The translations under genes and the position numbers were made by a program. Below the pieces are notes generated by a model that saw only the letters and a program-made list of their open reading frames with translations, did no database searches and was not told the origin of the DNA. Below are positions 13,150 to 64,000 of a stretch of DNA of 64,000 bases, piece after piece (the first letter of the stretch is position 1; each line of letters begins with the position of its first letter). The stretch is taken from NCBI GenBank assembly GCA_036785375.1, contig JAWMAR010000148.1, positions 744,001 to 808,000 of the forward strand, in the 5' to 3' direction. This DNA is from Leucoraja ocellata (lineage: Eukaryota).

Positions 13150-13470
13150 GTAGATAGACACGTAATGCTGGAGTAACTCAGCGGGACAGGCAGCATCTCT
13201 GGAGAGAAGGAATGGGTGATGTCTCGGGTCAAGATCCTTCTTTAAAGAATGACTTCATCCACACAGATGTTTGAAATGGAATCACTGGATATTTCACATT
13301 CATCTGGAGGGTATACCAGGCAGTTTAATGACTCAAGGCTGGAGTATCCTAGTGGGACAGCCAGCACCTCTTCAGTCTGAGGAAGAGTCTGGACCCGAAA
13401 TGTCACCCATTCCTTCGCTCCAGACATGCCATCTTCAGTTTAAATCAGCATCTGCAGTTCCTTCCTACAC
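13150..13470. mobile_element. Two inverted Penelope-terminal module fragments
   Basis: gctggagtaactcagcgggacaggcagcatc... and the opposite-strand cagtctgaggaagagtctggacccgaaatgtcacc. Confidence 0.7.
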
Positions 13471-13602
13471 TGCCAGAGAAAGTAGTTGAGGCAGATGACA
13501 ATAACCACATTATCCTGGCTATTGTTGATGATGCACCACCTGCTGGCATTCAAACAGGTCATCTCCCTCATGTTATGATTCAGCTACCGATGCCTCAACG
13601 TT

Positions 13603-13793
13603 AGGTGGACAAAAATGCTGGAGAAACTCAACTGGTGAGGCAGCATCTATGGAGCGAAGGAAATAGGCAACATTTCGGTCGACCCAAAACGTCACCTATT
13701 CCTTCGCTCCATAGAGGCTGCCTCACCCGCTGAGTTTCTCCAGCGTTTTTGTCTACCTTCGATTTTTCCAGCATCTGCAGTTCTTTCTTAAAC
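13603..13793. mobile_element. Palindromic (head-to-head) Penelope-terminal module
   Basis: Arms of about 75 bp, inverted about tcggtcgacc; same sequence as the termini at 50068 and 60993. Confidence 0.8.
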
Positions 13794-16634
13794 ACCTCAA
13801 CAAGTTAAGTCATTCTTAGCCAAAACTTTATAAAGGACTGATCTCTTGTTCACCGACTTTTGCTGCTAAATCTGGGCACCACCTTCTAACAAGTCCAAGT
13901 ATTTATACAAATTATTGAATGATCAAGACCTTCAGTGAAGAATAGCTGGCCTCACTTAATACAGAAAAGTTTATAGAGAGATTCGACAGAGCTGTTCAAA
14001 TCTCGAGGGGATTTATCTTTCAGGAAGGGAACAGGAATAATTACAGAACTATAGGCAAAAGACCAGGAATTGGGATTGAGTAATATTTTCCAAGAGCAGT
14101 CATTGACACAACAGGCATGACTATCATTGTGTTACTCCATGGCGATTATTATACAGGCTTCACCTCTAGGTGTATTTAAGACACTGTTTATAATAGTACT
14201 TCACCAAAATATTGTTGTTGACTGAGGGAGAAAAAAAAGTTCCCAAAGACAATAAGGAAAATAAATTTTAAGGTGTTAATATTATGTCACAAATGACAAA
14301 AATACAGAGCTAAAAAATAAAATGGGTGTTCTCCATTATAAGATTCATAATTTTGTTCCTGTTTTGATCTTTGATTTTGTAGTCGCTTTCCCACACAAAG
14401 ACCACATTCTAAAAGATTAAAGGATCAAAAAGTTAATGCATGGTGCCTGGCAAACTCCATCAATATTCATTCCTCTCTCCACCCTGGTGTTGCTTAATTA
14501 ACCTTTTCACACGCCTAGCTTCCTTCCTTTTATAACATTTGGCTGTTTTTTGTCCTCCTTAGTGTTCCACTGTCAAATAAATGTTTATGCTAAACAAATC
14601 CAGTATAAACTCAGGAACTTATAAATTCATGCTCTTTTTCCCCCAACCAGAAATGACATCTAAGTCAGTCAGACTGTGTATGGATGGAGATTAGCATGAT
14701 GGAGCTGATAATAGCTGCCTAAACTTCCAGATAATAACTATGCTGTTACGTTTTGAAACATTTAATATGTCAAGCAGGGAAAACTCGTAAGTTCGTAAAA
14801 TCGAAGTTACAATTATGAATCAGAAAATGTATAAAAGTACAATACGTGTAAATGAAAAAAGGGAAGGTATCTTAATTTATTTATAGGGAGAACTCTATAA
14901 ATGTAGCTACACAACAGTTAAAGGGATGAATCTTCTCTTATTTACTCCCACCATAATATATTCTATCACAACGGTGGAAAATACCTGAATATCTTTTACA
15001 AGTTTATAACTTTTAAAAGCTCGCCTTTTCGACACCAAATAAAGCAATGTTTAATAAAGCATAGCTGCTAGCCGCACACCAGAGATTTCCCATTTTGTCA
15101 TCAAGCCAAATTGTATTTACTTTTTGATAGTAAGTCCACACAGAAAATGCAAGCCAGCTCTTGCTTTCTGTTCAACCCCCATTCAACTTCCATTCTGTAC
15201 TGAAGTACATGATTGGGGGCCAGCTGGTGGTCCAGTGCTAGACTCACCAGCAAGGCCAGGGCCAGAACTATGATGTGCTGAGCTGAGATCTTGGATCACT
15301 TGGTAGTCATCTCATCCCTCAGCCGTCCCGTCCCCTCAGCTGTATGCCCGCCATGACCGATTAGCACAAGCCAACTTGTGAACAGATTTAAAGACCCTGT
15401 GGAAAAAAATGTTGGTGATTCATTGCTTTACTTATATTCTTATTTTGAATTACTTATTATTTTATGACTTTTAGGTCCTCCGGGTTACAGCACGGTTCCA
15501 TCCTTGCGAACTGTACGTAACCCAAACAGTTCACGTTGAAAATGCCAGACATGAACCAAGTTCCCAGACGGCAGTAGATACCTGCATTCCTGCAGAATCT
15601 GCCAAATCCATCCCATTAGTCTCCCAAACGCTGACTCGTATGTACAGGCAGGACATAAATCGCACATTTGTAAGCTGTGGAGTACCTGTCATTTTAACAT
15701 TTTTCCATTATTTAGTTTTAATTGGTAGTCTTTTTGAATAACTTAGCAGCAATGAGCTAAAGACGATCAATGTGTGTTCTGGGTGTTTTCCAAATGTGGC
15801 AGAGGAGGCCTGGTCAAGTATAGAACCGCTCTCCCTCCTCGGCCAGCCTTCTGCAATTATTTTTTTAAACAGCACAATGAATTAGGTCATTAACCTTTCA
15901 GAAATAGTGATGCCAACTTTCCCAATGGCTTAAGAGAAATTGTAGCATTATGGCAAGAAGTCTGCAAACAGCCCATGTTCATCTTATGAACCATGTGGTG
16001 TTTAAAGTATATGGCAAATGCTGACTGGAAGTCATCGACTCAGTCCAACACAATAGAAGTAATGAAGAAACAGATGAAACTACATACATTAAAGTCTTAT
16101 AATGAAAGCATATTCAAACTCAGTTGTATTTGTCCCCTTACCTCTGAAAGCAAACTGCGATCTTGATGGGAGTGGAAATAATCTGCATTAATAGTTTCCC
16201 ATTTTCAGTCATATAAGAAACTTAAGCCAAATAAGGTTTAGCCATGAAAAAGCCATAATTTAGTATGAAAAATAATCATGTAAACGATGCATAAAATCAG
16301 ATGAATTTATTTTCTTTTGTCGAGCAAAGGTTTGTGTACATTTATGTTGACCTATGAAATCCAGCTATCAAAGTGAACATTCAATTTTATTTTGACTATC
16401 TGGTCATTTCAGTATCTAACCTCTTATGTTTAAACTTGCGCTTTCGTGTGCTGATTACAGATCTGCAAAATCCATTCTGCAACAAGCATAAACAGGCCAA
16501 TCATCTAAAGTTGATAGCAAATAAACCATTGTCTTCCCATGCTGTCTGTTCATGAACTTAAACAAAATCATAATTCAGTATTATTTGGAGTGATATTCCA
16601 TCAGCTATTTAAATAACATATTAAAGTCAGATGG

Positions 16635-16940
16635 GTTTAGTTTAGAGATACAGCTTGGAAACAGGCCCTTCGGCCTGAGTCCACACCAACCAGCGATCCC
16701 TGCACATTAACACTCTCCTACACACACTAGAGACAATTTATACTTATACCAAAGCCAATTCATCTATAAACCTGTACGTCTTTGGAGTGTGGGAGGAAAC
16801 TGAAGATCTCGGAGGACATATGTGTGGTCACGGGGAGAATGTACAAACTCTGTACAGAACAGCACCCGTCGTGATCAAAATTGGATCTCCGACGCTGCAA
16901 GCGCTGAAAGGCAGCAACTCTACCACTGCGCCACCATGCC
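16635..16940 (-). mobile_element. HE1-like V-SINE, full length
   Basis: Reverse complement of the 21944-22241 element; (gttta)n tail and tRNA-like head. Confidence 0.85.
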
Positions 16941-17172
16941 GGGTGGTTAGAGGCTGAATTTCAAACTGTCATTCTGCCAAAACAGTAGGAAGTTTGACAA
17001 CAGTAATTGTATTCCATTAATGTACCAGTTTTAATAATGAATTATCTAACATTGAGGTCATATAAATCTCAGTGATTGGCCTGAAACTGGCTCTCGATCA
17101 GCTTCTGTATATACTTCTGTATATACTAATAATTGGCTAATTTCTCAAATAAAGCCCGAGTAAAATAAATTA

Positions 17173-17616
17173 AAGGGCCTGTCCCACCAGCATGCGATTG
17201 CATGCGGCTAGCGTGACCAAACGTGGTTGCTTAAGGTGTACGGCCTCATGGGGCCGGTCCCAATTCGAACCGCGGAGACGTATGGAGTTGTGAGGGGCTG
17301 GTCCCGGCATCATACTCACCAATCAGCTGGGCAGGAGGCAGGCCTACTGAATTTGGACGTCGCACGGCGTCGTGCGGTGACGTCATCGCACAACGCCACG
17401 TGCTAGGCGTACTCAGTCAAGACAGGCCATTGACTCGCAGGATTTTCGTACAGTGCAAGATTTTTGGAGCCCCGAGCGATGTCGGGACCAGCCCCGCACA
17501 ACCCCATACGCCTCCGCCGATCGAAGTGGGACCAGCCCCGCGAGGCCGTACGCCTCAAGCGACCACGTTTGGTCGCGCTAGACGCATGCAAACGCATGCT
17601 GGTGGGACATGCCCTT
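17173..17616. mobile_element. Foldback MITE (non-autonomous DNA transposon, possibly PIF/Harbinger-like)
   Basis: Long imperfect inverted arms aagggcctgtcccaccagcatgcg... / ...cgcatgctggtgggacatgccctt of about 150 bp; no coding capacity. Confidence 0.85.
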
Positions 17617-19574
17617 GAGAGATCCAAATAGAAAAAATATCTACCTTGAAAACAACATGCACATCAAACTTATATCCAATTTTTTTTTTTTTAAAGATCC
17701 AAGAGCAATGGAATTCTGCAAAAATCTCCTGGATTAAATAACTTTCTTGTGCACTCGTGCTTCTAAAATCATTGTTTTTTAAAGGATAGTCATTCTTAAA
17801 ATAACTCCAAAACTAAAATGTTGTACTACATATTCACTCAACTGATGAAACGCATTAATATGGGTTCCAAAACATTCATTAATAAAACATCTGCTTCCTG
17901 GAATTTTCACTGTTAATGAGCAACTTCTGTTCACTCATGTCCACTTTAATGTACAAGCAAATGAAGGATGAAAGTAATTCATTCCTCTTATTTATGCTCA
18001 GCGGCTATGCCCAAAACAGAAAATAAACTGGCACTACTCATAAAAAGGTAGTACCAATCACCAGAAGTCCAAACCTGCAGAAAAACATTAACATCCAGCT
18101 AAAGATGTTTTTTTATGGTCTACCGAAGATTAAATTGCCATATGGTGCAGTCTGCCAGATAGCTATTCAACATAAACAACAGCATTTTAATCCACAGAAG
18201 TGAATGCTATTTGCACTGATCAGATTGGCAAAATGTCAGCGGATTAAAAAGTTCAAAACAAGGAAACACTCGTTGTACTTGGCTTACTCTAAATAGATTG
18301 TCACCGCAAGGTTACCGTTAGCAGAAACCTGCAATTGTAATTTCACTCTTGTGCTAGGCCAGTGCAATTTGGTTGCATCCACTATAAATTTTAAAAACCT
18401 TGATGCTCCAATGTTCTTCGTTCCAATAGGTAACTCTTCTCTAAAAACAACTAGACAACAGATTTCTCTGAATTTTTGAACAGATGGAATTGAAGATGTA
18501 TGGCTTTAGCTTTTGTGGGCCTATTGAGACATTTGTTGTTAAGTTAAACATAACTAAACCCAAAGCATTTCCAGATTTTACCGATATATAAAGATACACA
18601 AAGTATGCAAATATTGGATCTAAAATGAAAAGGATGTGAGAGAGGGTTGACAAATGCAATTAGGAAAAATAGATATTATTTTGGATATTTATTATGCTCT
18701 TACTGAAAATAGACCAAAAATACAGTATTTTAGCAAAATTTGGAAAGCTAAAAGCAAATAATATAATCCAAAGTCATTTTAAAGATTCAGAGTTAGTGTA
18801 AGATCATTTAATGTTATTATAAACGTGTAATAAATACTGAATTTGCAACAGCCCTTTTTTAAAATTTCTATTGAAATACTTAATCTTTCAGTTCTACCAC
18901 ATCCTGTCTGAAAGATTAAACTGTCTCTTTCTCCCCATGAATGTTGATAAACCTGTTGTACTATGAAGATACTTAAAATATTCTTGCAACGAATAGGGCT
19001 AAAATTAAGTTTAGTGATTACCATACGTCATGGAGAATTTGCTTTTTCTATTTGCTTTGGCTGGGAATTGGTGCTGGTGTAACAGCAAGTCAAGACAAGA
19101 GTTAAGGGAGTGTTTAGTTGTCAGATGTACTGACAACAGAACAATGAAATTATTATTTTGTCCAAAGACGTGCGGGTTTGTAGATTAATTGGTTTCTGTA
19201 AAGACTGTAAATTGTCCCAGTGTTAGTCGGTGGGGACGCGGTGGGCTGAAGCGCCTGTTTCCGCGGTGTACCTCTAAACTAAACTAATCTTAACAAGCCC
19301 ATAAACACAATACACAAAGCTAATATACTATGATTGTTAAACATGCAATAAATTAATAACCATAATACGTGAAGTTCTTAGAGCAACCAAATACAATTAA
19401 TCGAAGTTCACATTTGCTGAGGTTAGTGTTGTGTAGTGTTCAAACAAAATAAAAATCAAGGATAATTTTATTTGATTTAGAGATGTTGAATCATCGTCCC
19501 CTGATAAAAAATTTGAAGCAGGAAAAGTCGTACAAAAATGGGGAAAAGGAAAGAAATTTGATTATATTTTGAAC

Positions 19575-19775
19575 AGAAAAGGCTGGAAAAGACTCAGCAT
19601 GTCAGACAGCATCTGGAAGAGATGAAAGAATTCATTGAAGTTTTAGGTCTGGGTCTCTTCATTTGATCTGTTATTTTTGCTTCCTCAGTTCTGCTATGAA
19701 GTCTGATGAAGAGATGCGATCTGAAACGTTAAATTGTTTCTCCTGCCACAGATGCTGCCTGTGCTGCTGATTGTT
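19575..19775. mobile_element. Old inverted Penelope-terminal module pair
   Basis: gctggaaaagactcagc...cagcatct and agtctgatgaagagatgcgatctgaaacgtt...cagatgctgcctg. Confidence 0.55.
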
Positions 19776-20170
19776 TATCGACTCCTCGGCGAGGCCACCA
19801 GCATAATCAAGGATGAGTCTCACGCCAGAAACTTGCTCTTTTTCCCTCTCCCATCAGGCAAGAGGTACAGAAGTGTGAAAACGCACACCTCCAGATTCAG
19901 GGACACTATTTTCCCAGCTGTTATCAGGCAACTGAACCATCCTATCACCAACCAGATACCAGTCCTGAGCTACCATCAACCTCATTGGAAACTCTCGGAC
20001 TATCTTTGATTGGACTTTACTGGACATGCACTCAACATTATTGGCTTTATCCTGTACCTGTACACTGTGTGCAGCTTGATTGTAATCATGTAATCTTTCC
20101 GCGGACTAGATAGCACGCAACCAAAAAACATTTTCACTGTACCTTGATGCACAGGACAATAAGCTAAACT
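19775..20170 (+). mobile_element. Rex1/Babar-type LINE 3' fragment
   Basis: SIIKDESH..LFFPLPSGKRYRSVKTHTSRFRDTIFPAVIRQLN is a typical Rex1 C-terminus; gacaataa tail. Confidence 0.8.
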
Positions 20171-20801
20171 CAGCATTTTCCGTTTTTATTTGAGTTTTCC
20201 AGCATATGCAGTTTTTGGGATTTCATTAATTATATTTGACCTGTTCAAGAATAGACTTAATCTGCCATGAAGTCTAATTGATTATATAAATTAATAATTC
20301 TATGCAGAACAAGAATTGTTTAAAAAAAATCAATTTGCAAAGCACTGGTGCAGAAACTTGTAAACTTTGATCAAGAAATAAACAATAGGCACAGGCATGG
20401 AAATAGAACTAATGGAAAACCTATAACTATTAAACCTAATAAAGCATTTGATGAGGAACAAGTGAAGCAGGCTAGCATTTTACCACCTATGGGTTAGTTT
20501 TAAAAAGAAATGCAGTCACTTATTTATGATACTGACGGAAGTAAGTGAAGTATAGGTTACACAAACAGGATAGATAAAAAATCCAGAACATCTGTTTATC
20601 GTGGTTAATTTACGGACAAATGTTAGCAAGGCCACCATGAAAACTCACTGATCTTTAAACAACACCATGGGATCTTTTACTTCCTCCTAGGCAGACAGAA
20701 AAAGCTGTAATTTAACATTAGATCACAGATAGCATTTTAAATATGCCCTTAACATTCCCTTCATGCTAAACTGTTGAGATTATTTGATTATACACTGACT
20801 A

Positions 20802-21009
20802 AAGCCCCTGTCCCACTTAGGAAACCTGAACAGAAACCTCTGGAGACTTTGCGCCCCACCCAAGGTTTCCGTGCGGTTCCCGGAGGTTGCAGGTGGTTGC
20901 CGGAGGGTGCAGGTAGTGGAAGCAGGTAGGGAGACTGATAAAAACCTCTGGGAACCGCACGGAGTCTCCAGAGGTTTCCGTTCAGGTTTCCTAAGTGGGA
21001 CAGGGGCAT
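20802..21009. mobile_element. Palindromic MITE with termini related to the 17173 element
   Basis: aagcccctgtcccacttaggaaacctgaac.. / ..gttcaggtttcctaagtgggacaggggcat; flanks gacTA / TAgtc. Confidence 0.88.
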
Positions 21010-21789
21010 TAGTCTTACCAACAAGAAAAGCACATACATCAAAATCTTTTGAACAATGAAGTCTCTCCACACAAGATAGATTGCAAGACTTAGTTAAACA
21101 TGTGGTATGACCAGTGATTCTTACCTTAGATTTCTGACAGAGCATATCTGTGTACTGGAAAGAGTTTGGAGTAGAGTAGAAATACAGTGACAGGGAAAAA
21201 ACAAGGCCAAATCTCTAATTTGTAATTCTGACTGCATCTTAACACATTTTTCTATCATTAACAGGTTAGACAAGCTAAGTACAAGAATAATTATAAGTAC
21301 ATTTGACCAAGCAGCAGTTCCATGGTGACCAGCGAATGCAAAAAATATTCTCAGATTTGGAAAACACATCCAAAAAGGAAGTGGTGTGGGGTAGATTTGA
21401 TAATAACAATGACAAGAGAGGTGATCTGGGCCTGAATGAATAGCAAACAAGTCCACGCGGACACAGGGAGAATGTGCAAACTTTACACAGACAGCACCCA
21501 ATGTCAAGATCAAATCCAGGTCTCTGGTGCCATGAAGCAGCAGCTTCACCAGCTGTGCCACTGTGCAACTCCTAATACCACAACATTGGAAAGAATATTA
21601 ACCAAGAAATATATTCTGGTAAAACTGGCAGCAATTAAATGGAAATGGGGCAAGGCTTTCATCTACATGTAGACTGAAATACTGAAACTGGCAAAAGTAG
21701 TTGGGACATGGCTTCACTGAATGCATTCAAGATAGTTTCCTGGGGCAAAATGCCATGGAACCAACACGAGATGGACTGCCTTCTCCATA

Positions 21790-22900
21790 GAACAGTGCAG
21801 CCCAGCGCAGGACAGGAATAGGCCCTTCAGACCATGATCCCACCTGTTTGCACGCATTCAATATTCCTTCATTCCCTGTCAACTCAGGTGCCTGTCTAAG
21901 TGCCTCTCAAACATTGCTATCATGTTTGCTTCCAACACATCCAGCACGGTGACACAACAATGTAGAGATGCTGCCTTACAGCGCCGGAGACCCGGGTTCA
22001 ATCCCGACTACGGGTACTGTCTGTACGGCGTTTGTACGTTCTCCCCGTGACCGCGTGGGTTTTCCACGAGATCTTCAGTTTCCACCCACACTCCAAAGAC
22101 GTACAGGTTTGTCAGTAAATTGGCTTGGAATAAGTGTAAATTGTCCCTAGTGTGAGTCAGGTAGTGTTAATGTGCGGGGAACACTGGTCGGTGCAGACTC
22201 GGTGGGCCGAAGGGACTGTTTCTGTGCTGTCTCTAAACTAAACATCCATTGGCAGTACATTCTAGGCACCTGCTACTCTGTAAAATACATCTTCTTTAGC
22301 CTAAAGCTGTGTGTTCTGGTATTTGACACTTCCACTCTGGGAAAAACATTATACACCCGATTTATGCCTCTCAACTTTATACAGTTCCATCAAGTTGCCG
22401 ATCAGTCTCTGACGCTTGAGAGAAAACAATCTAAATTTGTCCAGCCTTTCCTTGCAGCTGATACCCTCCAATTCAGGAAACATCCTGGTGAACCTTTTCT
22501 GCATGCTTTCCAAAGGATATTTCCCAACTTTTATACTCAATATCCTGACCAAAGGCAGCAAGCATGCCATACGCCTTCTTTACCACCCTATCCACTTGTG
22601 TTGCCACTTTCAGGCAACTGTGTGCTTGCATCCCAAGATCTCCATACATTAAAGCTCCTAAATGTTTATATTTAATCCACCCAAATACTAGACCTCATAC
22701 TTGGCCTAATTAAACTCCATCCACCCATATTTCCAACTGATCTATATCCTGCTGCACATTTTGACAACCTTCTTCTGCAACTCTGCCAAGTTTTGTGTCA
22801 TTTGCAAACTTAATCAGCCCATCTATATTTTCATCCAAAACATTTATATACCAAGCAATAGAGGCTAGCACCGATTCTTGCACAACACCACTGGTCACAT
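21790..22900 (-). mobile_element. Decayed CR1 LINE interrupted by a SINE
   Basis: Minus-strand TSGVVQESVL..YINVLDE..IKFANDTKLG and LESMQKRFTRMFP..LFSLKRQRL. Confidence 0.8.
21944..22241 (+). mobile_element. HE1-like V-SINE, full length, with 7-bp target-site duplication
   Basis: tRNA-like head with B box gggttcaatccc; central V-domain; ctctaaactaa tail; ACATCCA at 21937-21943 and 22242-22248. Confidence 0.9.
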
Positions 22901-24029
22901 ACTTCCAGACTGAAACACACCCCCCCCCCCCCCCATCATGGAGTTGGTGGCTGAGGCAGACATAATAGTGGTATTTAAGACACTTTTAGATAGGCATATG
23001 GATATGCAGGGATTGGGGGTGTGTGGATTGTATGCAGGTGGATGAGATTGTCTTGGCTTCACATTCGGCACAGATGTTGTGGGCCTGTTATGCTCCACAA
23101 GAGACCCAACACCTCTTCTTATAGAGGAATAAGATTCCCCTCCATGATGCCACTATACTCAATGTTATTCTTCTTGGTAAATACTGATATGAAGTACTCA
23201 TTTACTTTCTCAGCCATTTCCTCCAGCTCCAGGTATAAATTCCTCCCTTTGCCCTTGGGTGGGCCTTATCCTCTCCCTAGTGACCCTCTTGATTTTAATG
23301 TATGCATAAAATGCCTTGCATTTCTCCTTAATCTTACTCGCCAGGGATACTTCGTGCCACTTTTTAGTGCTTCTGATTGCCTGTTTAAGCTCTCCCTGCT
23401 TGCTTTATAGTCTAGTTATGATGCAGGGGCATTGACTTCATTGTTTCCATTTTCTTACAATAAAGGTTGCCATTCGGCCCAATGAATCTACCCCAGTTCT
23501 CAGAATAATTCATGCCACCATTTCCATGCAATTTGGTTTCTCTCACCTGCCCATCAGCTCCACCCCAATTCTCCTCCCACCCACCAATACTATGGGCAGT
23601 GCAAGATAGCCAATCAAACAGCGTATCGCTGGGATGCGAGGGGAAACAAGAGGATTCAGGGGGAAACCCAAACACTTGCAGGGAGAACAAGCACACTCCA
23701 CTCAGATCGCACCAAGGGACCAAATGTGGGTTGTTGGAATTGAGAGGTAGGAGTACTACTTTCTAAGTGTGACGTCGACTAACAAAATAAAACATTGACT
23801 TGGTTTCTCTCCCCACAAAACGCTGCTTGACCTGCTGACTACTTCCAGTACTGTTTTATTTGATATCCAGACAATTATATACAACAATTCAAGCAGTAAA
23901 ATTCCATTAATGGAGCATGCAGGGATTCAGTAGTGCTTGGTTGGCATTTTTTGCAGACTATTGACTATTACTCCAACTAATATATAATTCATTTAATTCA
24001 TTATACATGTTACAGAGTAACACAAAAGA

Positions 24030-24160
24030 TAGGCACACAATGCTGGAGTAACTCAGCGGGACAGGAAGCATCTCTGGAGAGAAGCAATGGGTGACGTTTT
24101 GGGTTGAGACCCTTTAGTGTCTTATCTTCGGTGTAAACCAGCATCTGCAGTTCCTTCCTA
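24030..24160 (-). mobile_element. Penelope-terminal module
   Basis: gctggagtaactcagcgggacagg...gggtgacgttttgggttgagaccctt followed by inverted ccagcatctgcagttcc. Confidence 0.7.
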
Positions 24161-25245
24161 TCCTGGTATCACAATATGTTTTCCAGTGAACCCAGTAGGT
24201 TTAATGGGAGTTGATGAAAGGTGATCCTGACGAGTTGAAAGGAAGTTGCGGAAACATTACCCTGTGAGCCAAATGCCACACGATCAGGATTTCTGAACAA
24301 TCGGATCACGGATTATCAGAGTTTAATATTGCATGGGGACAGGGGTAATTCCTAATCTTATAATGAGGAATTTACTAGAGAAAACACAGTCAATATTCCA
24401 TTCAGTTACAAACTAGAGTTTTGACCTTTGAGTAATTCCCTCCTTACACTTGTGTAAATTGTTTATTTTAAAGTTATAGGAACATCAGATTGAAAAGTTT
24501 CCCTGCAGGCAAACAAACACCTATGGGAGTGTTTCATAATTTGCAGATGTTTCTTTCGCTGAAAAATATAGTGAACAGGGAAAAATAATGCATCTGTGGC
24601 TAACTAAAGAGTTTTTAAAAAACATTAGAGGCTTAAAACATTAGTAGATTATAAGCCTGAGGAAATGATATTTCAGGAACAAGCAACTGGGGACCAAAAA
24701 AAAAGATAAAGGCCAAGGCGGCAGAATATGAGAGCAGATCAATAAGAAATATAGTATAGGATTGTTGGGGCTTCTGTATTTATGTAAAAATAGTTCACAT
24801 AAGGCAAGGGGTGAAAAAATGAATGAGAGGAATAAATAAAAGTGAGACTTTGGATAAATATATTTTACATGTTCTCATCCTGGAAAACAAAAACTTGTAG
24901 AAATAATTGAAATTCAAGAGATTAATAAAAAAAGATGAATTTCAAATGACTGAAGTACTGAAGAAACTGGGATTTAAAAAATATATTTCCTGGCTTTGAC
25001 AATTTGTTTCCAGTAGAGGTGGCTGCAGAAATGGCAAATGCATTAATATTGATCTTTCAAAATCATTAGCTGCTGGAACTGCTCCCAGTGAAAAATACTA
25101 TTCATATTTCTCACCACACAGGAGGCCATTTATCCTATCAAATCTATGAAAGATCTCAGTACTATTTCATCTATCCTATTCCCCCACTTACACCCTAGTA
25201 ACATGTCCTATTTCTTACAAACCTCAACTCTCACCAATTCTACTA

Positions 25246-26274
25246 CAGGTGCACAACCTTTTATCCGAAAGCCTTGGGACCAGACACTTGTCGGATTTCG
25301 GACATTTTCGGATTTCCGAATGGAAGGTTTTTAGCGTAGATTAGGTAGGCAGCGCGGGCGGCTTGAAAAGTCTGGAGCGGCTGGATCCTCCCCGGAGACC
25401 GGGGAATCATTGTAAATCATTGCTTAAATGTTAGTCAGTTAGTTAGGAGGGATTTTATGTGGTGGTGGTGGGGTGGGGGGGGTGGGGTGGGGTGGGGGGG
25501 TAAAGGGGGAAACTTTGATTCTTAGTCCCCTACCTGGTCGGCGACTCCCAACATCGCGGAGCTGGAGGCTCCGTCCGGCCGCGGGCGGCGCCGGTTGGAG
25601 CTACGACCCCGGCAACTCTACCCCTGGCTGTGAGGCGCTCCAAATCCAGCGACGGGCGCCCGCAGCCCCAGCTCCGCGAATGTTGGGAGTCGGCGGCCAC
25701 AGTGCTCCGGAGCTTACCGCACGGCGACCCGATAAGGCATTGCCCGCTCCCCGCTGGTATCCCAGCGCTGTGGCCGCCGACTCCCAACATTCGCGATGCT
25801 GGGGCTGCGGGCGTCCGGCCGTGGGCGGCGGTGGATTTGGAGCGCCTCGCAGCCAGGGGTAGAGTTGCCGGGGTCGGAGCTACAACCGGCGCCGCCCGCG
25901 GCCGGACGCCCGCAGCCCCAGTGCTGCGGAGCTTACTGCACGGCGACCCGGTAAGGCATTGACCGCTGCCCACCTCTCCGACGAGGTAGGGGACTAAGAA
26001 TTAAAGTTTACCCCTTCACCCCCCCTTCACATAAAAGCCCTCCAAACTAACTGACTAACATTTAAGCAATGATTTACAGATGTTTAAGTGTCTCCCCAGT
26101 CTCCGGGGATGAGGCAGCCGCTACAGTAGTACAGACCTGGGTTGACCGTGGGTCGTTTCGGGTCAAGTTTGGTGCCAAACGCGAGCTTTGGTGTGCAGAC
26201 GACATCCTGGAAAAAATGGCCGGTTTTCGGAGTTTTTCGGTTTCCGGAACTCCGGATAAAAGGTTGTGCACCTG
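25246..26274. mobile_element. Non-autonomous Tc1/mariner (pogo/Tigger-like) element with nested inverted repeats
   Basis: TA|CAGGTGCACAACCTTTTATCCG ... CGGATAAAAGGTTGTGCACCTG|TA: perfect 22-bp TIRs and a TA duplication; no transposase. Confidence 0.9.
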
Positions 26275-27199
26275 TAGTACCATCCATCTATGCACTAATT
26301 GGCAACTGTAAATTGCCCCTAATCCATCAATCAACATGACTTTGGAATGTGAGAGTTAGATTTAGCTCTTAGGGCTAAAGGAATCAAGGGATTTTGGGAA
26401 AAAGCAGGAATGGGGTACTGATTTTAGAAGATCAGCCATGGTCATATTGAATGGTGGTGCTGCACATATTTTCCTATGAAAGGAGAGTATCTGAAGGACC
26501 TGGAGGAAACCCATGCAATTACAAGGAGAACTTACAACCTCCATGCAGACAGCACCTGCAATTCGGATCAAACTCAAGCCACTGAGGTGGCAGCACTATC
26601 CAATATGCCACTATGCAAAGCAGGAGGGAGCAAAATAACGTGCATTAAACTGGACAGTGTTGGTTCAAGGACTAGAAAAAAGTTAAGAATAATGACCTCT
26701 TATGAACTAGCAAGCTGTTATGGTGGGATGCCACAAGACTCTTGGCTATTTGCAACCTATTACAGGAATATGTTGTTGGTAGGAAAAACGGAATAAATTC
26801 TGAGTATCAGCCACAATCGAAATTGCTGGTAAATGCATGTGTGTGGCGAGGATTGGTTTCAGCTCTAATTTTCTTTGCATTTTCAAACCCTTTAAGCTAG
26901 TGCTGAAAAGCAACACCTGGAAGGACCAAAGACAACAAGGGCACAGAATGTACACAAAGTGGAGACCTCAATACCCTTCACCCACAGTGACTCAGCTGCA
27001 GTATCATTGAGTGTACCGAGAGAGTTCAAAAATATAAACGGGTGCTAAACCAGTGTGCAGCAGGTGATGAAAAAATAATACAAATTGAGAAACCTACACA
27101 AATGTATCCTCAGTAATTGACCCGGCAGCAATGGTGTAAGTGGCCAGTGCACAAACCTCATGGATGGAGACACGCAGCAGACAAAGGCAGCACATAAGA

Positions 27200-27800
27200 A
27201 AACAAGGGAGGTATGATAGACGGCCCCTCAAGCCTTCCCCTACATTCAATATGATTATGGTTGACCTACCTTAGGTCTCTATCTCCTCCTCAGAAAATTC
27301 TCCACACCCATCAGTTCCCTTATCTTTCAAAAAATTATTTACTTCCTCTTTAAATACCTTCACAATTTCGGAGCTTCACCATTCCCTGCGAGAAGCTGTT
27401 ATACATATCTGCTTTAAATGAAATTTCCTAATCCTTTAACTATGTCACCTCATTTGAGGTTCTTTCACAAGCAGAAAATCTCAGCATCTCCCCTGTCATG
27501 TCCCTAAGAATTTTGTATGTTTCCAATATATCACTCTTTATTCTTCTGAATTCCAAAGAATAAAATCCAACATTTTGCAGCTGGTTAAGAACAGCCATTT
27601 CATCTGAAGAATTAGCCCAGTGAAATCATTTTGGGCTGCTGCCAATGCCAGTATAAAAAACAGGGGCCAAAACTGTGGTCTCATCAGTACCGTTCGCAAC
27701 TGTAACCGTCTAAACTCCAAACCTCTTGCAATAAAGACCAGTGTGCCATTTGCCTTCTCAACTACCTGCTAACAATTTACGATTCATGCACAAGAACACC
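27200..27800 (-). mobile_element. Highly decayed CR1 LINE fragment
   Basis: Minus-strand LRTVLMRPQFWP and CR1 3' UTR remnants. Confidence 0.55.
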
Positions 27801-28577
27801 TTGATGAGAACACCTCTGTACTTGCTCATCCACAAATTCTCTCTATTTAGATGATTCGAGTGCAAGAGATATGCATGTAATGAAAGCAAGAGATTGTAAG
27901 AACAAGAGGAGAGAAACAAAACAAGAGCACAAGGCAAGAAACTAAGTAGGTGTGCGAGATACAAATGACAAAACATTGTCTACAGGTCCTATGAATTAAA
28001 ATGGCCAGTTTATGCATTTTAAAATTCCTTTTCCCACAAAACATAATTTATACTGTGGTAAACCCAAGGAAATCTTCTAGCAACCGCACATTTAAAATTC
28101 CATTGTATTTTAGTGCTGTAAATTGTACCAAAATTTCAGTGCTGTTATGTTCTCTCTATTCAAATGTAATTAATTAAAATTAAGCTTCCTTTACTATGCA
28201 TTGTATTAATCTACTTTATTAACGAACCAATTGAACAGCAAGCTTTGAAGAACAGAGTGACAACCTCAATCACTGTTGAACCAGAAGAACAATGCCAATG
28301 GCTCTCAGGTTCATTAGAGGCTGCTCTACAGACTAGAGGTTTCTTCATAGTTTTAAGTATTGGTATGCTTTTAAAGTTCTGTAGGGCTGATCCACAGTTT
28401 CATGTGCAAGTCTGGAAGGAAACTGGCTACTCCCATCAGTCAAATCCATTGGAAGACTGGGATAAAACAGGATTTTAGCAGGACAACTAGCATCACATCC
28501 CAAATTATGCCAAGAGTAGTGTCAGCTACAGATGTGACATTATACAAAACTGTCAAGAGTTGACATGCCATATATTT

Positions 28578-45085: not shown

Positions 45086-45089
45086 GTAT

Positions 45090-47536: not shown

Positions 47537-47594
47537 CCAAGTACTCCATTAACTGCTCTGCTGTTATAATTTCAACCATGGGTGGTAGTTTAAT
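47537..47594 (-). CDS. MINDY2: MINDY2 exon 2 (58 nt)
   Basis: ttatag|IKLPPMVEIITAEQLMEYL-G|gtaaga; phase 0 to 1. Confidence 0.95.
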
Positions 47595-48018
47595 CTATAA
47601 TAAAAATGGATATTCTTAAATCAGATAAAAAGGTAGAAACTATAGCACCTACGAAAGTAACACATACAAAAGCTGGTACATAGTGACAACATAAAGAGCA
47701 TCTTAAAAGAAAAAGCACAGAAGTTTAAGAGTTACTTCAACTCATTAATATTATAGATTCCCCTACTTTCTTCTACCCACCACTGTCAAGCATGCCTTCT
47801 TGGCCAAGCTCCAAAATTAAGCATATCAAAGCATTGTAGCCTGGAGGAAAATACATAGATTCCAACAATAAGGACGTGTAGATCTTTGAATATGAAGATC
47901 TCAATTTTTAATTTGAGGTATAGACAAACCAAGGCTCCTCTGTCAATGAGCACACGATGTTGTCAACTAAACAGGCATCACTATATTATTAAGAGATTTT
48001 TACTATTTTAAATTATAC

Positions 48019-48771
48019 CTTCCATGCCAAAAGAAGAACGTTCATGATTGCAAGCAGAGGACAGGGACCATTTTCATTCTGCGTAATAATAGGTGTGTTC
48101 TCCGCTTTCCATTTGATCCACTTAATGTGATAAACTGACTGCCCAGGGAATCTTTCTTTCGAACCAGATGGTTTGGCAACACCGTCCTTGCTGTTATACT
48201 CTTCACTCTGTAAAGCGAGAGCCAAAGCTCGGTCTTCAGTCCCCTCGCTGTTCAAGTCAGAGCTAGGACAAGAGTTCAAATTGGAAAAGGACTCGAGGGA
48301 GTCGATGCTTCGCGATTCGCCAGGCATGCTTTGATCGCTGGCGCTGTGATTCCTGTCACACTCGTGGTTTTTACTCGGGCTACTTTCTTCCGGCAGCATA
48401 TTATCCGCTTGCTGCTGAGCAAGGCCGGGCAGAAGGTCCTTCTTCAGCCCGCTCGCAGACTCCTCACTCAGTTCGCCCATCTTGTTTACCAAGTTGTGTT
48501 GGGGGCTGTTGTTGACTTTCTCCTCCCCAGTAGGCGCGCCCTCCACCTCCACCGCATCTTCATCCTCTTGCAGGCGTGTCACGGAGCTTGAACACGGATG
48601 ATCGCCACCTGCAGCAGTCCCGGCCCCGGCCCTCGGGCCCACGGCACCGCTCCCCGGGCTGTCCGATCCCTTCCGCCGCTCGAAGCTGCCATCGCCACTC
48701 GCCACAGTCGGCCCAGCCCCGGCTAACTCCACGGCCACGCCGCCCCGCTCGACACTGACATTACTTTCCAT
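48019..48771 (-). CDS. MINDY2: MINDY2 exon 1 (753 nt): disordered N-terminus plus start of the MINDY catalytic domain
   Basis: ORF MESNVS...KERFPGQSVYHIKWIKWKAENTPIITQNENGPCPLLAIMNVLLLAWK carries the MINDY Q-x-x-N-G-P-C catalytic Cys motif. Ends AAG|gtataa, phase 0. Lies in a CpG island. Confidence 0.97.
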
Positions 48772-50067: not shown

Positions 50068-50880
50068 AGGTAGACACATAATGCAGGAGTAACTCAGCGG
50101 GACAGGCATCATCTCTCGAGAGAAGGAATGGGTGACGTTTCGGATCGAGACCCTTCTTCAGACTGATGTCAGGGGAGTGGGCAGAACAGATAGAATGTAG
50201 TCGGAGACAGTAAGGCTGGTGCGAGAACTGGGAAGGGGGAAGGGATGGAGAAAGAGGAAAAGCAAGGGCTATTTGAAGTTAGAGAAATCAATGTTCACAC
50301 CGCTGGGGTGTAATCTACCCAAGCGAAATATGAGGTGCTGTTCCTCCAATTTGCACTGGGCCTCACTCTGACAATGGAGGAGGCCCAGGACAGAAAGGTC
50401 AGATTGGGAATGGGAGGGGGCGTTAAAGTGCTGAGCAACTGGGAGATCAGGTAGGTAAAGGCGGACTGAGCGGAGGTGTTCAGCGAAACAATCGCCATGC
50501 CTGTGCTTGGTCTCGCCGCTGTACAGAAGTTGACACCTGGAACAGCGGATACAGTAGATGAGATTGTAGGAGGTGCAAGTGAGCCTCTGCCTCACCTGAA
50601 AAGATTGTTGGGGTCCTTGGATGGAGTAGAGGGGGGAGGTAAAGGGACAGGTGTTGCATCTCCTGCGGTTGCAGGGGAAAGTACCTGGGGAGGGGGTGGT
50701 TTGGGTGGGAAGGGACAAGTTGATCAGGGAGTTGCGGAGGGAATGGTCCCTGCGGAAAGCAGAAAGGGGTGGAGATGGGAAGTAGTGGGATCCCGTTGGA
50801 GGTGGAGAAAGTGTTGGTGGATTATATGCTGTTTGCGACGGCTGATGGGGTAGAAGGTGAGGACAATGGGGACTCTGTCC
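50068..50880 (-). mobile_element. 5'-truncated Penelope-like element (Neptune-type) with GIY-YIG endonuclease region and terminal module
   Basis: ORF 50269-50718 GTFPCNRRRCNTC..NLIYCIRCSRCQLLYSGETK..EHLRSV..HFN..EQHLIFRL..GVN: Cys linker plus GIY-YIG. Hammerhead-like core at 50134-50161. Confidence 0.92.
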
Positions 50881-52800: not shown

Positions 52801-54289
52801 CAGAGAAAAATATAGTAGAAACTTTGAAATAAAAATTCTGAAAGTGCTTATTGTGTGAATTGTTGAATCCAGAAAGTTCTAATGCTCCTTTTCAAAGACA
52901 AGCTGCTAGTCCTTGAGTTTTATTTGAATGTCATTGGAGCAGTGTTGGAAACGTAGATGGAGAGGTCAGAGTGCTTGCGGAGTGATAGGCAAGTGGAAAC
53001 CTCAAATTACAACAGCAGACTGAACAGAATTGTGCCAAGAAGTAGTCACCAGTTTGAGTGCAGCAGGGACATCAGCATGGGTAGTGAGTACAGCATTCTA
53101 AATTAAAAGAATTATAAATAAATTGCTGATTGTGCAAAGAGTTAACATGAGTTAAGATGCAACTCAGAAGATATTGAGCATTGATAGAAGTGAAAGAAGG
53201 AATAATAGAGTTGCAAGGATCTGATAATGCTGGTTTACAGAACAAGACAGTAAGTGCTGGAGTACTTTGTAGGATAGGTGATGTTTCAGTTCAGGACCCT
53301 TCTTCAGACTCCGAAGGGATCATATAATGCAAGAGAGAAAACCATGGATTGCTGAAAAAAGAGAGAGGAGGAGAAGGCACAACTGATGTTTGTCATCAGA
53401 TGGAAGTGCTGACATTTTGGAGGATTATATTATATAACAAATGTGAAGGCTGCTGTTGTGGAAGAAGATCGCAAGAGGAGCCTTATCCTGGTTATTGGAG
53501 CAGGAATGAGAATAGAAATACAGGATGCGGAATAGATCCAATGCTATTATGGTTTTCAAATTAAGTATAGGTGAATAAACTGGAACTGTGTAACAAATAT
53601 TTATCTTCTGAATGTGGTGATGGATGCACTGAATATTGTATCCACTGTGGTTCAGTGGTAAAAGTAAAAATATTTCTTTAAAATTGTAAAGCCATCCATC
53701 CCAAAGTGAAAATCATTGTGTTGCTCATGAGTTTTGCTGTGTTGGATATTTCTTGCTTCTTTCAAGCAAAATTACCTCACATATTATCACAAACTTGTTT
53801 CTTGAATAATACACTGCATTATCATGTGATTTGTGTACATTTTGTATGTACTGTATAGCATGATATCTAATATGTTTAAAAGTTTATAATATAATGATGG
53901 TATATAATATATTAATGCTTTTTGTTATTTTGATCTGACATTTTGTATGGTCATTTTTGAAAATTTTCATCCTGTTCCCAAACAGACTCCACTTTATTTG
54001 TAAAATGTTTTCATAATAGAAATGCTATAATGCTATAGACTTTTTAATTGCTGCACTTGTGCATATGCTTGATATTATAATACATTTCATTACACAGTTA
54101 ATACACCAGCTGCTTTGGTGCTGAGTTTCTGGGGTTGGGATTGGGATAAATTTGAAGATGAGCATGTTTTAAGAAGCAGAGAGAGAGGGGGGGGGGAATC
54201 CACTAACACATAAATTTATATATGTTCTTATGATACCGCATATGGGTTATGTGGGAAAACTATTGCATTAAAATTGGGAGGTACAAAAT

Positions 54290-58903: not shown

Positions 58904-59200
58904 TTACTGCTATATACTGGTAATGATTCCTGTTCCATCTCAGTCCTGATGCTAGGTGTTAACTCGCGATGTGTAGGAAAGAACTGTAAATGCCGGTTTA
59001 AATCGAAGGTAGACACAAAATGCTGGAGTAACTCAGCGGGTCAGGCAGCATCTCTGGAGAGGGAATGGGTGACGTTTCGGGTCGACTTCTTCAGACTTGC
59101 GATGTCTGTTTGCACCTATTTTCCCCCCACGGATGCTGCTTGGTGTGCTGAGTTCCTCCAGTATTCTGATTTGGATTCGAGCATCTGCAGTCTCTTGTCA
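58390..59200 (+). mobile_element. Decayed Penelope-like 3' end plus inverted terminal modules
   Basis: YKGETKYSLGDHFAEHL..LPV and LFYLGCLRPPELNVE; pyrimidine tract including C37 at 58867-58903; terminal modules at 58970-59200. Confidence 0.7.
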
Positions 59201-60992: not shown

Positions 60993-61670
60993 TGTTTAAG
61001 AAAGAACAGCAGATGCTGGAAAAATCGAAGGTAGACAAATGCTGGAGAAACTCAACAGGTGAGGCAGCATCTATGGAGCGAAGGGATTGGTGACGTTTCG
61101 GGTCGGGACCCTTCTTCAGACTGATGTGGGGGGGGAGGGTGGCAAGAAGAAAGGATTACCTGAAATTGGAGAAGTCAATGTTCATACCGCTGGGGTGTAA
61201 ACTACCCAAGCAAAATATGAGGTGCTGCTCCCCCAATTTGCGGTGAGACTTACTTTGGTCGTGGAGGAGGCCCAGGACAGAAAGGTTGGATACGGAATCG
61301 GAGGGGTAGTTGAAGTGCTGGGCCACCGGGAGATTGGGTTGGTTAATGTGAACTGTGCAGAGGTGTTGGGCGAAGCGATCGCCAAGCCTGCGCTTGGTCT
61401 CACCGAGGTAGAGCAGTTGACACCTAGAGCAGCGGATGCAATAGATGAGGTTGGAGGAGGTGCAGGTGAACCTCTGCCTCACCTGGAAAGACTGCTTGTG
61501 TCCTTGGATGGAGTCGAGGGGGGAAGGGAAAGTACCAGGGGAGGGGGTGATTTGGGTGGGAAGGGACAAATTAACCAGGGAGTTATGGAGGGAGTGGTCA
61601 CTGCGGAAAGCCAAAAGGAGGAGATGGGAGGATGTGGCCAGTGGTGGGATCCCGTTGGAGGTGTCGAAAA
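60993..61670 (-). mobile_element. 5'-truncated Penelope-like element with GIY-YIG region and terminal module
   Basis: ORF 61156-61614 FTCTSSNLIYCIRCSRCQLLYLGETKRRLGDRFAQHL..GMNIDFSNFR; hammerhead-like core at 61092-61119. Confidence 0.92.
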
Positions 61671-61868
61671 ATAAAGATTGATTATTTTTTTTCCATCAGA
61701 AATTATAGGCATGCCTAGTTGGCACTCCATTCTCAGTTGTCCAACAATAAATATTTTGGATCATTGAATATGTAACTTCTAAGAATTGCATTTATAATTG
61801 CTCTGATGTTAAGAGACTGGAAGTTCTGAACCATCACATAATGAATTAGTTGCTGAACCCCAGGTTTT

Positions 61869-61871
<3 letters not shown>

Positions 61872-61903
<32 letters not shown>
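61872..61903. repeat. (AAT)n microsatellite
   Basis: About 10 perfect units. Confidence 0.95.
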
Positions 61904-64000
61904 GACAGATGACTATTGGAGTCTTATGAAAAATTGTGATATCACTTCAAAACCGTTCCAGAACTAAATAAAAAAAAATCTTTCTGCATTTGTTAAGGTT
62001 TGCTCCAAGGATTGCCTAAAACTTAACAGACCTAGTCAAGTGCTTTGGATATTGGGGTAAACATTTTTGGGAGGTTGCCTCTTAGAATCCGAGATAATGC
62101 ATGTTCATTCTGTTTCTGTGTTCAACAGTGAGACAGACGAGGCTAGTGTGGGAACACAGATGGGGCAGGAGATGCTTCATGGAGTAGGTGGATTTGTGGT
62201 TTATAGTGTATTTCTCCTGTTTATGTAGGGCTTCTGAAAGCATGGACTTGAGCCATGCCATGGACCTGAATACCACCCCTAATGTTGTTGCTCTGTTTTG
62301 AGTGGTTGCAAGTTGGGGATTACCGTGGGTCGGTAGGTGTGTTGCTTCATTCACAGAGGGTTTGAGTGTGTCATTAAAGTTTTTTTTTTCTCTGCTTACC
62401 TGGTAATCTTTTTCTCAACACCTCCGATCCCAGTCCTGATTCTACATTACTATCCCACTGTCTTCACTATCAGGATCAATACTAATCTTCTGCCTGCTAT
62501 TAATGACGCTAGTCTGTCCCTTTTATCTTTTCTGCCTTCTTTTCTGGAACCTTAGATAACCTGGAATATTGAGCAGCCAGTACTGGTCACCCTACAATCA
62601 GGTCATACTCGTATGTTGCTACGTACTGTCAACTCATCTATGTTACTGCAAATGCTTCATGCATTTAAATAAATACTTTCAGGGCTTTTACTTTGTTCTG
62701 AGCTGCACGCTTTTGTTTGCATATTCACTCTACGCTGTTACACTTGGCTTACCAATTTCTTTTTCGTGCTATGCCACTACTCAATCATTTTCTCTAGATT
62801 TATTAAATATCCAGTTTTCAGAGCCCTCCCATTGTCATATTTAGTTTGAAGCCTGTCTCCAATCCTGTTTCAATTCGGCTGTCCTTCATTGATGGAGACA
62901 TGGGCTTCAGTGAGTTTAAAAAAAAAAAAAAAAAAAAAAAGGATGTGCTGCTCCCTGTATTTTTCAAGGAATTGTCAGCGGTGAAAGCCCTGTCCATTGT
63001 CTTGGTGGAAGGAATTTGCAGTTCATTTCAGGGAGCAGGTCATGGAAGGAGGAAGCTGGTGGTTATATTCCCTTTGCTGAGATACTCCTGTGTCTTTGTT
63101 GCAGTTGGATTTTTCACAATTGCAGCTTGTGAGGTTCCTGAGTATATTCTCCACTTCTGTAGGATATGAGATTGTGGTTACTGAACTCTCTTCACCATTG
63201 AGTTTTTAATCTTCATTGGGGATAGCCTCTGTTCCTGAAGCCCTGTCATAATGACTATGAACTGGATGGGTTGCACTGGGGGCTTTGGTCTTTCTTTTGT
63301 TTTTTCCTCCATCGAAGATGTCAAGCACAATTGTAGAAGAGTGTCAATGCGATGTCACAGCTGTGCCAAGCTGCATCCACGCATGCCATCAGGACCATTT
63401 GCAGTATTTTATTGAGTTCTTGAAGTGGTTTGTCTTACCATTGATGTCATTGGGAATGAGAGCAGTAGAAATCGTTATGTTATTGCTTTTCATTCTTGTA
63501 TCATCCCGAGTCTGTTATTAGTAATTTGACACACAAGACTAGGTTCAAGACTGATTTATCGGCTTGAATACTTGATCAAGACTGGCATATCAATACTTTG
63601 CTGTGTGAGTGAGATCTCTGTCAAAGTTGCTGTCTGTTTGCAGAAGTATTACTGAGGTGTGGGCTGCTTGTTCAAATGGTGTAAATATTTGGATACAATG
63701 AGTTCTGCTGATGTTCCAATCACCAGGAACTAAACAGGTTATTTGATTATTCGTGTGATTTGTGGGAATTGGCTGTGAACCAGCTGGATGATCATTTAAT
63801 TGCACACAAAATGATGGATTAACTCAGTGGGCCAGGCAGCATCTCTGGAGAACATGGATAGGTGATGTTTCAGGTCAGAACATGACCTGAAGTAATTTCT
63901 TAATCAGCGCGACATGGAGTTGTGTAGCATAGTGCTCAGAGAGTTGTAGAGTTATACAGCGTGGAAATGGGCTCCTTGACCCATCATACCCACGCCAACA

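What the first reader, a model, noticed from the sequence alone, without database searches (positions are those of the whole stretch)
13150..63890. Dispersed family of short Penelope-terminal modules with a hammerhead-ribozyme core (retrozyme-like)
Seen: a module of about 130 bp recurs at least a dozen times (13150, 13370, 13603, 19700, 24030, 30730, 31961, 40550, 42278, 46383, 50068, 53230, 58970, 60993, 63810). Its sense strand reads CTGA-N-GA-A-[stem]-GAAA-C-G-T-H, e.g. minus 61119->61092 CTGAAGA A GGGTC CC GACCC GAAAC GTC and minus 40679->40652 CTGAAGA A GGGT TTCG GCCC GAAAC GTT. Stem II differs in sequence between copies yet still pairs (plus 19703: CTGATGA AG AGAT GCG ATCT GAAACGTT). Two copies lie directly downstream of GIY-YIG ORFs, in the same sense. 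Established: Penelope-like elements carry minimal type I hammerheads whose palindromic helix III (here ACGU) is thought to require dimerisation. Inference: solo copies far outnumber ORF-linked ones, so this may be a non-autonomous ribozyme-bearing mini-element. Caveats: helix I looks very weak (about 2 bp), and solo copies may simply be extreme 5' truncations.
Basis: partly seen in the sequence, partly recalled or inferred. Interest (0 to 1): 0.7.

Follow-up and report, generated by a model that had tools for sequence, protein, structure and literature searches.

The report
Fixed-start stubs of a Penelope retrotransposon
These short repeats are inserted copies of the ribozyme-motif-bearing end piece of a known kind of jumping gene (a Penelope-like element); most begin at one spot, likely the start of the element's RNA, and they are likely dead-end by-products, although the same family has also left short tandem arrays elsewhere in the genome that likely arose by repeated copying around small RNA templates.

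Summary
The repeat is real: about 1.3-1.8 million copies by extrapolation from a 1.2-Mb sample. It is the pseudo-LTR end (minimal type I hammerhead motif plus optional tail) of a recently active Neptune-type Penelope-like element with a 3.95-kb unit. Solo copies are true insertions with target-site duplications. Their 5' ends are not random: 182 of 252 that reach the ribozyme's front edge stop within 10 nt of it. There is no excess at the cleavage site. They do not behave as a separate retrozyme: they cluster with ORF-linked copies, stem II shows no compensatory change, and they lack the ~70+ nt beyond the tail kept by every multi-unit derivative. Modules copied internally almost never stop at that edge (1 of 97), so the edge is likely an RNA 5' end: solos would be run-off cDNAs primed internally near the mRNA start. 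Outside the window I found 16 different mini-units (202-560 bp) inserted as tandem runs, each with the hammerhead motif: nascent retrozyme-like arrays. The scan's notes report both the fixed start and single arrays in other genomes. Cleavage, transcription start and circles are untested.

The parts
13152..13242 (-). Solo module, +3..+93 (0 = C of CTGA); front of core damaged
13331..13472 (+). Module with core at 13377, internal deletion, tail; short inverted arm at 13331-13375
13604..13794 (.). Head-to-head pair joined in stem II (+13..+92 minus, +14..+126 plus); tail on one arm only; no CTGA core
   Evidence: paralogue L248 shows a 13-bp flanking repeat
19573..19770 (.). Old head-to-head pair; plus arm carries the divergent core at 19703
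24031..24165 (-). Module +6..+89 with an inverted tail arm (24124-24165) in front; no CTGA
30724..30823 (-). Solo module 0..+98, 11-bp flanking repeat; stem II has an A-C mismatch
31962..32075 (+). Inverted tail arm plus module; whole insert flanked by a 15-bp target-site duplication; core front replaced
40550..40686 (-). Solo module -7..+129 with tail, intact core and stem II, sense to the host gene's intron
42278..42399 (-). Decayed solo module -6..+117
46383..46478 (-). Solo module -5..+90; ACGT palindrome mutated
50072..50805 (-). 5'-truncated Penelope-like copy: EN remnant 50278-50805, pyrimidine-rich 3' UTR, module 50072-50167
53230..53310 (-). Module starting at -3 with an internal deletion
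58970..59168 (.). Module with tail (minus, stem II shortened) facing an older plus-strand fragment at 59113-59168
60993..61695 (-). 5'-truncated Penelope-like copy: GIY-YIG remnant 61159-61695, shortened 3' UTR, module with intact core and tail
63806..63876 (-). Module +15..+85, no core
8811..48135 (-). Host gene: MINDY deubiquitinase exons at 47953-48135, 36996-37190, 31125-31280 and 8811-8927; the modules in this span lie in its introns

Best explanation
The modules are inserted copies of the pseudo-LTR end of a Neptune-type Penelope-like retrotransposon, and the solo ones are likely run-off cDNAs made when the element's reverse transcriptase starts inside the 5' module of its own mRNA and reaches the RNA's 5' end after about 95 or 130 nt. 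Shown: the module is both the 3' end of a unit and the 5' UTR of the next; copies end at two 3' sites; solos carry target-site duplications; their 5' ends pile up at -6..+2 whichever 3' site was used; the cleavage site leaves no mark. Inferred: the pile-up is a transcription start at the ATCAGT just before the core; priming needs RNA running to about +200, so solos cannot be re-copied; ORF-bearing and tandem copies come from a second pool of templates without that end (read-through, circular, or re-entered end to end). The hammerhead motif rides along, and as a single copy is likely inactive.
For: Unit structure: 3947-3980 bp, ORF starts 164 nt after CTGA, partial tandems. 3' ends: 235 of 442 at +84..99, 138 at +116..132, 21 between, the known PLE tail and two internal start sites (PMC11167929). 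Flanking repeats of 10 bp or more in 14 of 63 solos against 0.2 expected. 5' stop rate 0.072/nt at +2..-7 (182 of 252) against 0.005-0.008 at +11..+50 and 0.002-0.004 beyond -28; 36 of 46 among copies 90% or more identical. Same for tailed (58 of 74) and untailed (124 of 178) copies. 10 of 370 end at +26..+30. Of 97 young modules that run on into the 5' UTR, 79 keep the upstream 10 nt; I inspected all 18 others and only one (L328) starts at the edge; Fisher p 2e-20 counted by 74 loci. All 16 mini-units keep sequence to +201 or further, although the pattern allowed +149 (rough p 0.002). Young clusters mix solo, inverted and long copies, 9/4/8 at 97%.
Against: No transcription start was observed: RNA reads come mostly from dispersed copies (93-94% run on into unlike sequence in the two bulk runs) and show no sense-strand start pile-up. 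No extra G at -4 of solos (7 of 42, background 21%). Ends spread over -1..-6 rather than one base, the same six bases that form the 5' strand of helix I. The stop rate is already raised at +3..+10 (0.026) and still 0.022 at -8..-27 in the full set. The run-through contrast compares modules met late in synthesis with modules met early, so a stall confined to early synthesis is not excluded. One 93% cluster of 13 holds no long copy, and subfamily C has only 4 long copies in 58. In the anole element reverse transcription is shown in vitro only; in D. virilis the start lies 46 nt plus a 75-nt intron upstream of the ribozyme (PMC2377424, PMC4209133).
Confidence: 0.6

Rival explanations
1. The 5' pile-up is a position-specific stall or cut early in cDNA synthesis (at the helix I strand, at protein bound to the C-rich tract, by snap-back at the TCAG-N-CTGA palindrome, or by the element's endonuclease), on templates that continue upstream. 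Solos are then still dead-end by-products.
For: Ends spread over -1..-6, the helix I 5' strand, directly behind a pyrimidine tract. 59 head-to-head pairs in 1.2 Mb, several joined at palindromes. No cap-derived G.
Against: 1 of 97 internally copied modules stops there. 1 of 16 mini-arrays has its 5' end there. Three mini-unit junctions begin at 0, -1 and -4, as if joined to a free RNA end.
Confidence: 0.22
2. The solos are a non-autonomous SINE- or retrozyme-like mini-element with their own source copies, transcribed from an internal promoter and mobilised by the Penelope protein.
For: Huge excess over ORF-linked copies, fixed ends and target-site duplications. One cluster of 12 solo and 1 inverted copy without a long member; 19 of 143 short copies are over 5 points closer to another short copy than to a long one.
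Against: Nearest neighbours do not sort by class (130 of 179 against 121 by permutation, p 0.16). No core-bearing tandem unit in 1.2 Mb. No compensatory change; 51 of 223 keep core and stem II. Every multi-unit derivative keeps at least 72 nt that solos lack.
Confidence: 0.1
3. The boundary is a 3' splice site, as in D. virilis Penelope where an intron ends at helix I, and solos are copies of spliced RNA.
For: Pyrimidine tract plus CAG before the core, and GTTAG/GTAGT/GTAAG at the ORF stop in several subfamilies (PMC4209133).
Against: Solos keep the AG and often TCAG instead of a first exon. A genome-wide pattern for the spliced junction gave 3 hits, none precise. No GT-AG joint among the 7 joints in four RNA runs.
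Confidence: 0.04
4. Ordinary random 5' truncation.
For: Upstream of -28 and in long copies truncation is scattered.
Against: A roughly 10- to 30-fold higher stop rate in one 10-nt window, also in young copies and in copies delimited by target-site duplications.
Confidence: 0.04

Closest known systems
Minimal type I hammerheads in pLTRs of metazoan Penelope-like elements (Cervera and de la Pena 2014, PMC4209133)
   Same: Core, extra base before stem II, G-C closing pair, palindromic ACGU in place of helix III, weak helix I, mostly single motifs, opposite-strand pairs.
   Different: That paper ascribes singles to truncation without mapping their ends, and reports covariation across families; here ends are mapped and no two-sided change was found within this family.
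EN+ Penelope-like elements, Neptune (or Nematis) type (Craig et al. 2021, PMC8557442)
   Same: RT then GIY-YIG, C-X4-C-xx-C linker, DKG motif, partial tandems, inverted 5' arms, tail often at one end only.
   Different: ORF is long (at least 1159 aa in L141, with a proline-rich insert); clade assigned by motif only, no tree built.
Poseidon element of Anolis (PAc; Frangieh et al. 2024, PMC11167929)
   Same: Two internal start sites bracketing the tail; need for RNA beyond the start site; no mark at the ribozyme cut.
   Different: There the ORF starts inside the ribozyme, here 164 nt after it; the fixed 5' end of solos is not described in the parts I read.
Animal non-LTR retrozymes (PMC7229834; Li et al. 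2026, bioRxiv 10.64898/2026.07.22.740005)
   Same: The mini-arrays outside the window are tandem 202-560-bp units, one type I motif each, derived from a pLTR.
   Different: The window's solos are not tandem. The arrays carry a minimal, not canonical, motif, and each junction was seen in one insertion only, so no spreading family is shown.

Membership tests
EN+ Penelope-like element | Single ORF with RT followed by GIY-YIG endonuclease | tested here: met
   Pfam scores below cut-off, but 1549 homologues at E<=1e-20 with RVT_1 and often GIY-YIG
EN+ Penelope-like element | Partial-tandem units forming pLTRs | tested here: met
   L141, L142, L185, L198; up to three 5' modules spaced 3946 bp on C300
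EN+ Penelope-like element | Optional 30-40-nt tail, inverted arms, target-site duplications | tested here: met
   tail on one arm only in 41 of 59 inverted pairs against 28.7 expected
Neptune/Nematis clade | CX2-5CxxC linker between RT and EN | tested here: met
   seen in translations; definition from PMC8557442
Neptune/Nematis clade | Placement on an RT tree | not tested
   no named reference sequences at hand
Minimal type I hammerhead | CUGANGA and GAAA boxes, stem II, palindromic helix III, UH | tested here: met
   150 motif hits against 9 reversed; 85 with a 4-bp stem; 93 with ACGT against 0
Minimal type I hammerhead | Compensatory changes in the stems | tested here: not met
   only one-sided U-A to U-G between subfamilies; 0 two-sided in 12 window copies; low power, the family is young
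Minimal type I hammerhead | Self-cleavage as dimer | not testable with these tools
   predicted monomer folds do not form the hammerhead; no 5' ends at the cut site
Non-LTR retrozyme (solo modules in the window) | Two or more consecutive units each with a complete motif | tested here: not met
   none in the window; none in 1.2 Mb
Non-LTR retrozyme (solo modules in the window) | Lineage independent of the autonomous element | tested here: inconclusive
   young clusters mixed; one solo-only cluster of 13
Non-LTR retrozyme (mini-arrays elsewhere) | Two or more consecutive non-coding units each with a complete motif | tested here: met
   L306-L313: 3-5 motifs, periods 202-560; the free-energy filter of Li et al. 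was not applied
Non-LTR retrozyme (mini-arrays elsewhere) | Spread of one unit to several independent loci | tested here: inconclusive
   16 junctions, each in one insertion; L307, L329, L330 share flanks; under half of the 74 loci inspected
Non-LTR retrozyme (mini-arrays elsewhere) | Expression as circular RNA | not tested

The most novel reading that the evidence does not exclude
This genome records the Penelope replication cycle directly. One protein primes at two internal sites on two template pools. Linear mRNA gives over a million fixed-start stubs, like a strong-stop DNA that inserts on its own. Small RNA fragments spanning the pLTR and at least 200 nt past the core are closed or re-entered end to end and copied round several times in one insertion, so retrozymes are born afresh again and again from a Penelope element, with a measurable minimal cis-element and without needing ribozyme cleavage to define the unit.
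Probability: 0.4. Interest if true: 0.7.

Novelty: new member of a known kind. Interest (0 to 1): 0.42.

Why it matters
How Penelope-like elements make their tandem ends, and what their hammerhead does, are stated as open in PMC11167929 and PMC8557442; the origin of animal retrozymes from them rests on co-occurrence and sequence likeness (Li et al. 2026). The element itself is ordinary. Its copies, however, give numbers that a bench system can test: two start sites, a 5' limit at -6, a cis-element reaching about +200, and arrays that must have been multi-unit at insertion. They also warn that most genomic 'minimal hammerhead' counts in such genomes are passive stubs.

Tried and rejected
Rfam scan: no hammerhead model hit; hairpin hits to miRNA families are below their cut-offs. 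Splicing at the ribozyme's front edge: tested on DNA and RNA, not supported. Self-cleavage as the source of 5' ends: no excess at +26..+30. Fixed cDNA length: both 3' classes stop at the same place. Cap-derived G: not seen. One search used references contaminated by inverted arms and gave a false bump at -78..-117; I repeated it with 39 cleaned references and dropped 23 units of a 66-nt array. One search had a register error and was redone. BLAST overstated junction microhomology; exact values are 0-3 nt in 11 of 12 resolved junctions, 6 in one, and four junctions were not resolved by that script. No RNA holder was listed among indexed runs, which is no evidence on expression. A DNA search with the commonest young core returned nothing because common words are skipped. 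A loose end at L074:7985 in the single-cell runs reads like library adapter on antisense molecules (recalled identification) and was set aside. Paper searches: 'hammerhead ribozyme'+'cartilaginous'+'retrotransposon' gave 0 papers; searches gave no title on fixed-start solo copies; most subscription papers and Repbase are not searched.
Full report
Numbering: 0 is the C of CTGA on the element's sense strand; the predicted cut lies between +27 and +28.

Observation. The window is G000:C148:744001-808000 in a 3.44-Gb genome. The best named protein relatives are from cartilaginous fishes. A profile from seven window copies finds module sequence at all 15 listed places. In 120 stretches of 10 kb taken at arbitrary places on the 73 largest contigs it gives 616 hits, and 0 on reversed sequence. 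442 non-array copies hold the 3' core. Extrapolated, that is 1.3-1.8 million copies; the sample covers large contigs only. Of the 15 listed copies, 10 match the core boxes, 7 keep ACGT and 3-4 also keep a pairing stem II. Stem II is 4 bp with a tetraloop. Helix I is 2 bp, a 2x2 mismatch and 2 more bp. Changes among 223 copies are mostly CpG-type transitions; between subfamilies only one-sided changes occur, and 12 window copies show no two-sided change. Two stem pairs exceed shuffles, but two-sided A-U at the first is 4 of 223, close to chance. Modules between 8.9 and 48 kb lie in introns of a MINDY gene, in both orientations.

The parent element. Upstream of the modules at 50167 and 61125 lie a pyrimidine-rich UTR and GIY-YIG remnants. 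A young copy (L083) carries RT and EN and has at least 40 near-identical relatives, so the family moved recently. Complete units are 3947-3980 bp; the ORF begins 164 nt after CTGA and has DKG and C-X4-C-xx-C motifs, the latter marking Neptune or Nematis. The module is therefore both the 3' end of one unit and the 5' UTR of the next. Long copies are 5'-truncated at scattered places.

Ends of the short copies. 3' ends fall in two groups, 235 of 442 at +84..99 and 138 at +116..132. This is the PLE tail, which PMC11167929 ties to two internal start sites of reverse transcription. In 59 head-to-head pairs the tail is on one arm only in 41, against 28.7 expected (p 0.0009); I tested this after an earlier scan note raised it, and PMC8557442 states the tendency. 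Solos are insertions: 14 of 63 have a flanking repeat of 10 bp or more, against 0.2 in shuffled pairings. 5' ends pile up: 182 of 252 copies that reach +2 stop by -7 (0.072/nt), against 0.005-0.008 at +11..+50, 0.026 at +3..+10, 0.022 at -8..-27 and 0.002-0.004 further up; 36 of 46 for copies at least 90% identical. Tailed and untailed copies stop at the same place. Base composition in 96 solos falls to background at -7. The cut site shows no excess (10 of 370).

What sets the 5' edge. Splicing looked likely, because in D. virilis an intron ends at helix I (PMC4209133), but solos keep the AG, the genome has no precise spliced junction among 3 pattern hits, and four RNA runs show no such joint. 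A sequence-intrinsic stop is disfavoured. Of 97 young modules followed by 5' UTR, at 74 loci, 79 keep the upstream 10 nt. All 18 others were inspected; 17 are preceded by element sequence and one starts at -5. An RNA 5' end fits best, and TCAGT resembles an initiator (consensus recalled; PMC2377424 shows an internal promoter for Penelope). This step is inferred: RNA reads were dominated by passenger transcription of dispersed copies and could not show a start, no cap G was seen, and an early-phase stall remains possible.

Mini-arrays outside the window. Among 32 fetched regions around those matches, 16 distinct short units appeared, joining +201..+311 back to 0..about -260. Eight arrays hold 3-5 motifs with periods 202-560 bp, units differing by 0-2 bases or one indel. 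Arrays seen whole end at the two start sites and begin at scattered places. L306, L307, L310, L312 and L328 have 9-15-bp duplications around the whole run; L309 has none. In L306, L307, L309 and L321 the first partial unit begins beyond the point where the last one ends, so a one-junction insertion would have had no repeat to seed unequal crossing-over: at least two junction copies were present at insertion. Each junction occurs in one insertion, though break points recur in new combinations. This fits copying round a small circle or re-entry of a fragment end to end. Against: L307, L329 and L330 are one insertion with 4, 4 and 3 motifs, so unit number can change afterwards or in assembly; donor arrays may lie among the uninspected loci; and the search covered one young subfamily. 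No unit ends between +149 and +200 (rough p 0.002). In the anole element the template must extend about 55-60 nt beyond the start site. Solos lack this stretch and would be dead ends.

Comparison. Solo minimal hammerheads, tails, inverted arms and partial tandems are known (PMC4209133, PMC8557442, PMC3846280). The arrays meet the tandem criterion of Li et al. 2026 for non-LTR retrozymes; the solos do not. The scan's notes report the fixed start in several other genomes and single arrays in three; these are unchecked AI notes and I found both features before reading them.

Papers seen. PMC4209133: parts 1-2 of 4. PMC11167929: parts 1-2 of 4. bioRxiv 10.64898/2026.07.22.740005: parts 1-3 of 5; its supplements, not seen, list retrozymes of one chondrichthyan and may include such arrays. 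PMC2377424: abstract and two sections. PMC3846280, PMC8557442, PMC7229834: passages. No supplements were read.

Verdict. Real, abundant, and a new member of a known kind. The retrozyme reading fails for the listed solos but points to something true nearby. Interest 0.42.

Noticed in passing
L306-L314, L316, L321, L325-L330, L333 (G000 contigs C68, C205, C270, C1005, C9, C298, C726, C976 and others): Tandem mini-arrays of 202-560-bp pLTR-spanning units, each with a hammerhead motif, with 16 different junctions.
   Followed up: yes
L051:363-655 and 1382-1706, L100:479-801 and 4129-4477, L283:961-1209, L294:7860-8108: Dispersed arrays of a 66-nt unit (+19..+86) that lacks the CTGA box; six arrays of 3.8-5.3 units in 1.2 Mb. 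L283 and L294 share the same complex internal rearrangement, so such arrays seem to be copied as a block.
   Followed up: partly
G000:C148 about 966-1018 kb (L002, L248): An inverted duplicate of the window's region, MINDY exons included, lies about 200 kb downstream; paralogue or assembled second haplotype.
   Followed up: no
G000:C300:1139423-1147463; L183: Full-length units in runs with up to three 5' modules spaced 3946-3978 bp, over 8 kb in one stretch.
   Followed up: no
L203-L205: Three copies join the ORF end directly to -3..-6, deleting the 3' UTR without splice precision.
   Followed up: partly
window 17173-17616, 20797-21014, 25411-26078, 57533-57979: Long inverted-repeat elements, MITE-like, unrelated to the module.
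   Followed up: no
window 28538-29080 (+): Remnant of another reverse transcriptase, RVT_1 E 2e-14.
   Followed up: no
   Followed up: partly
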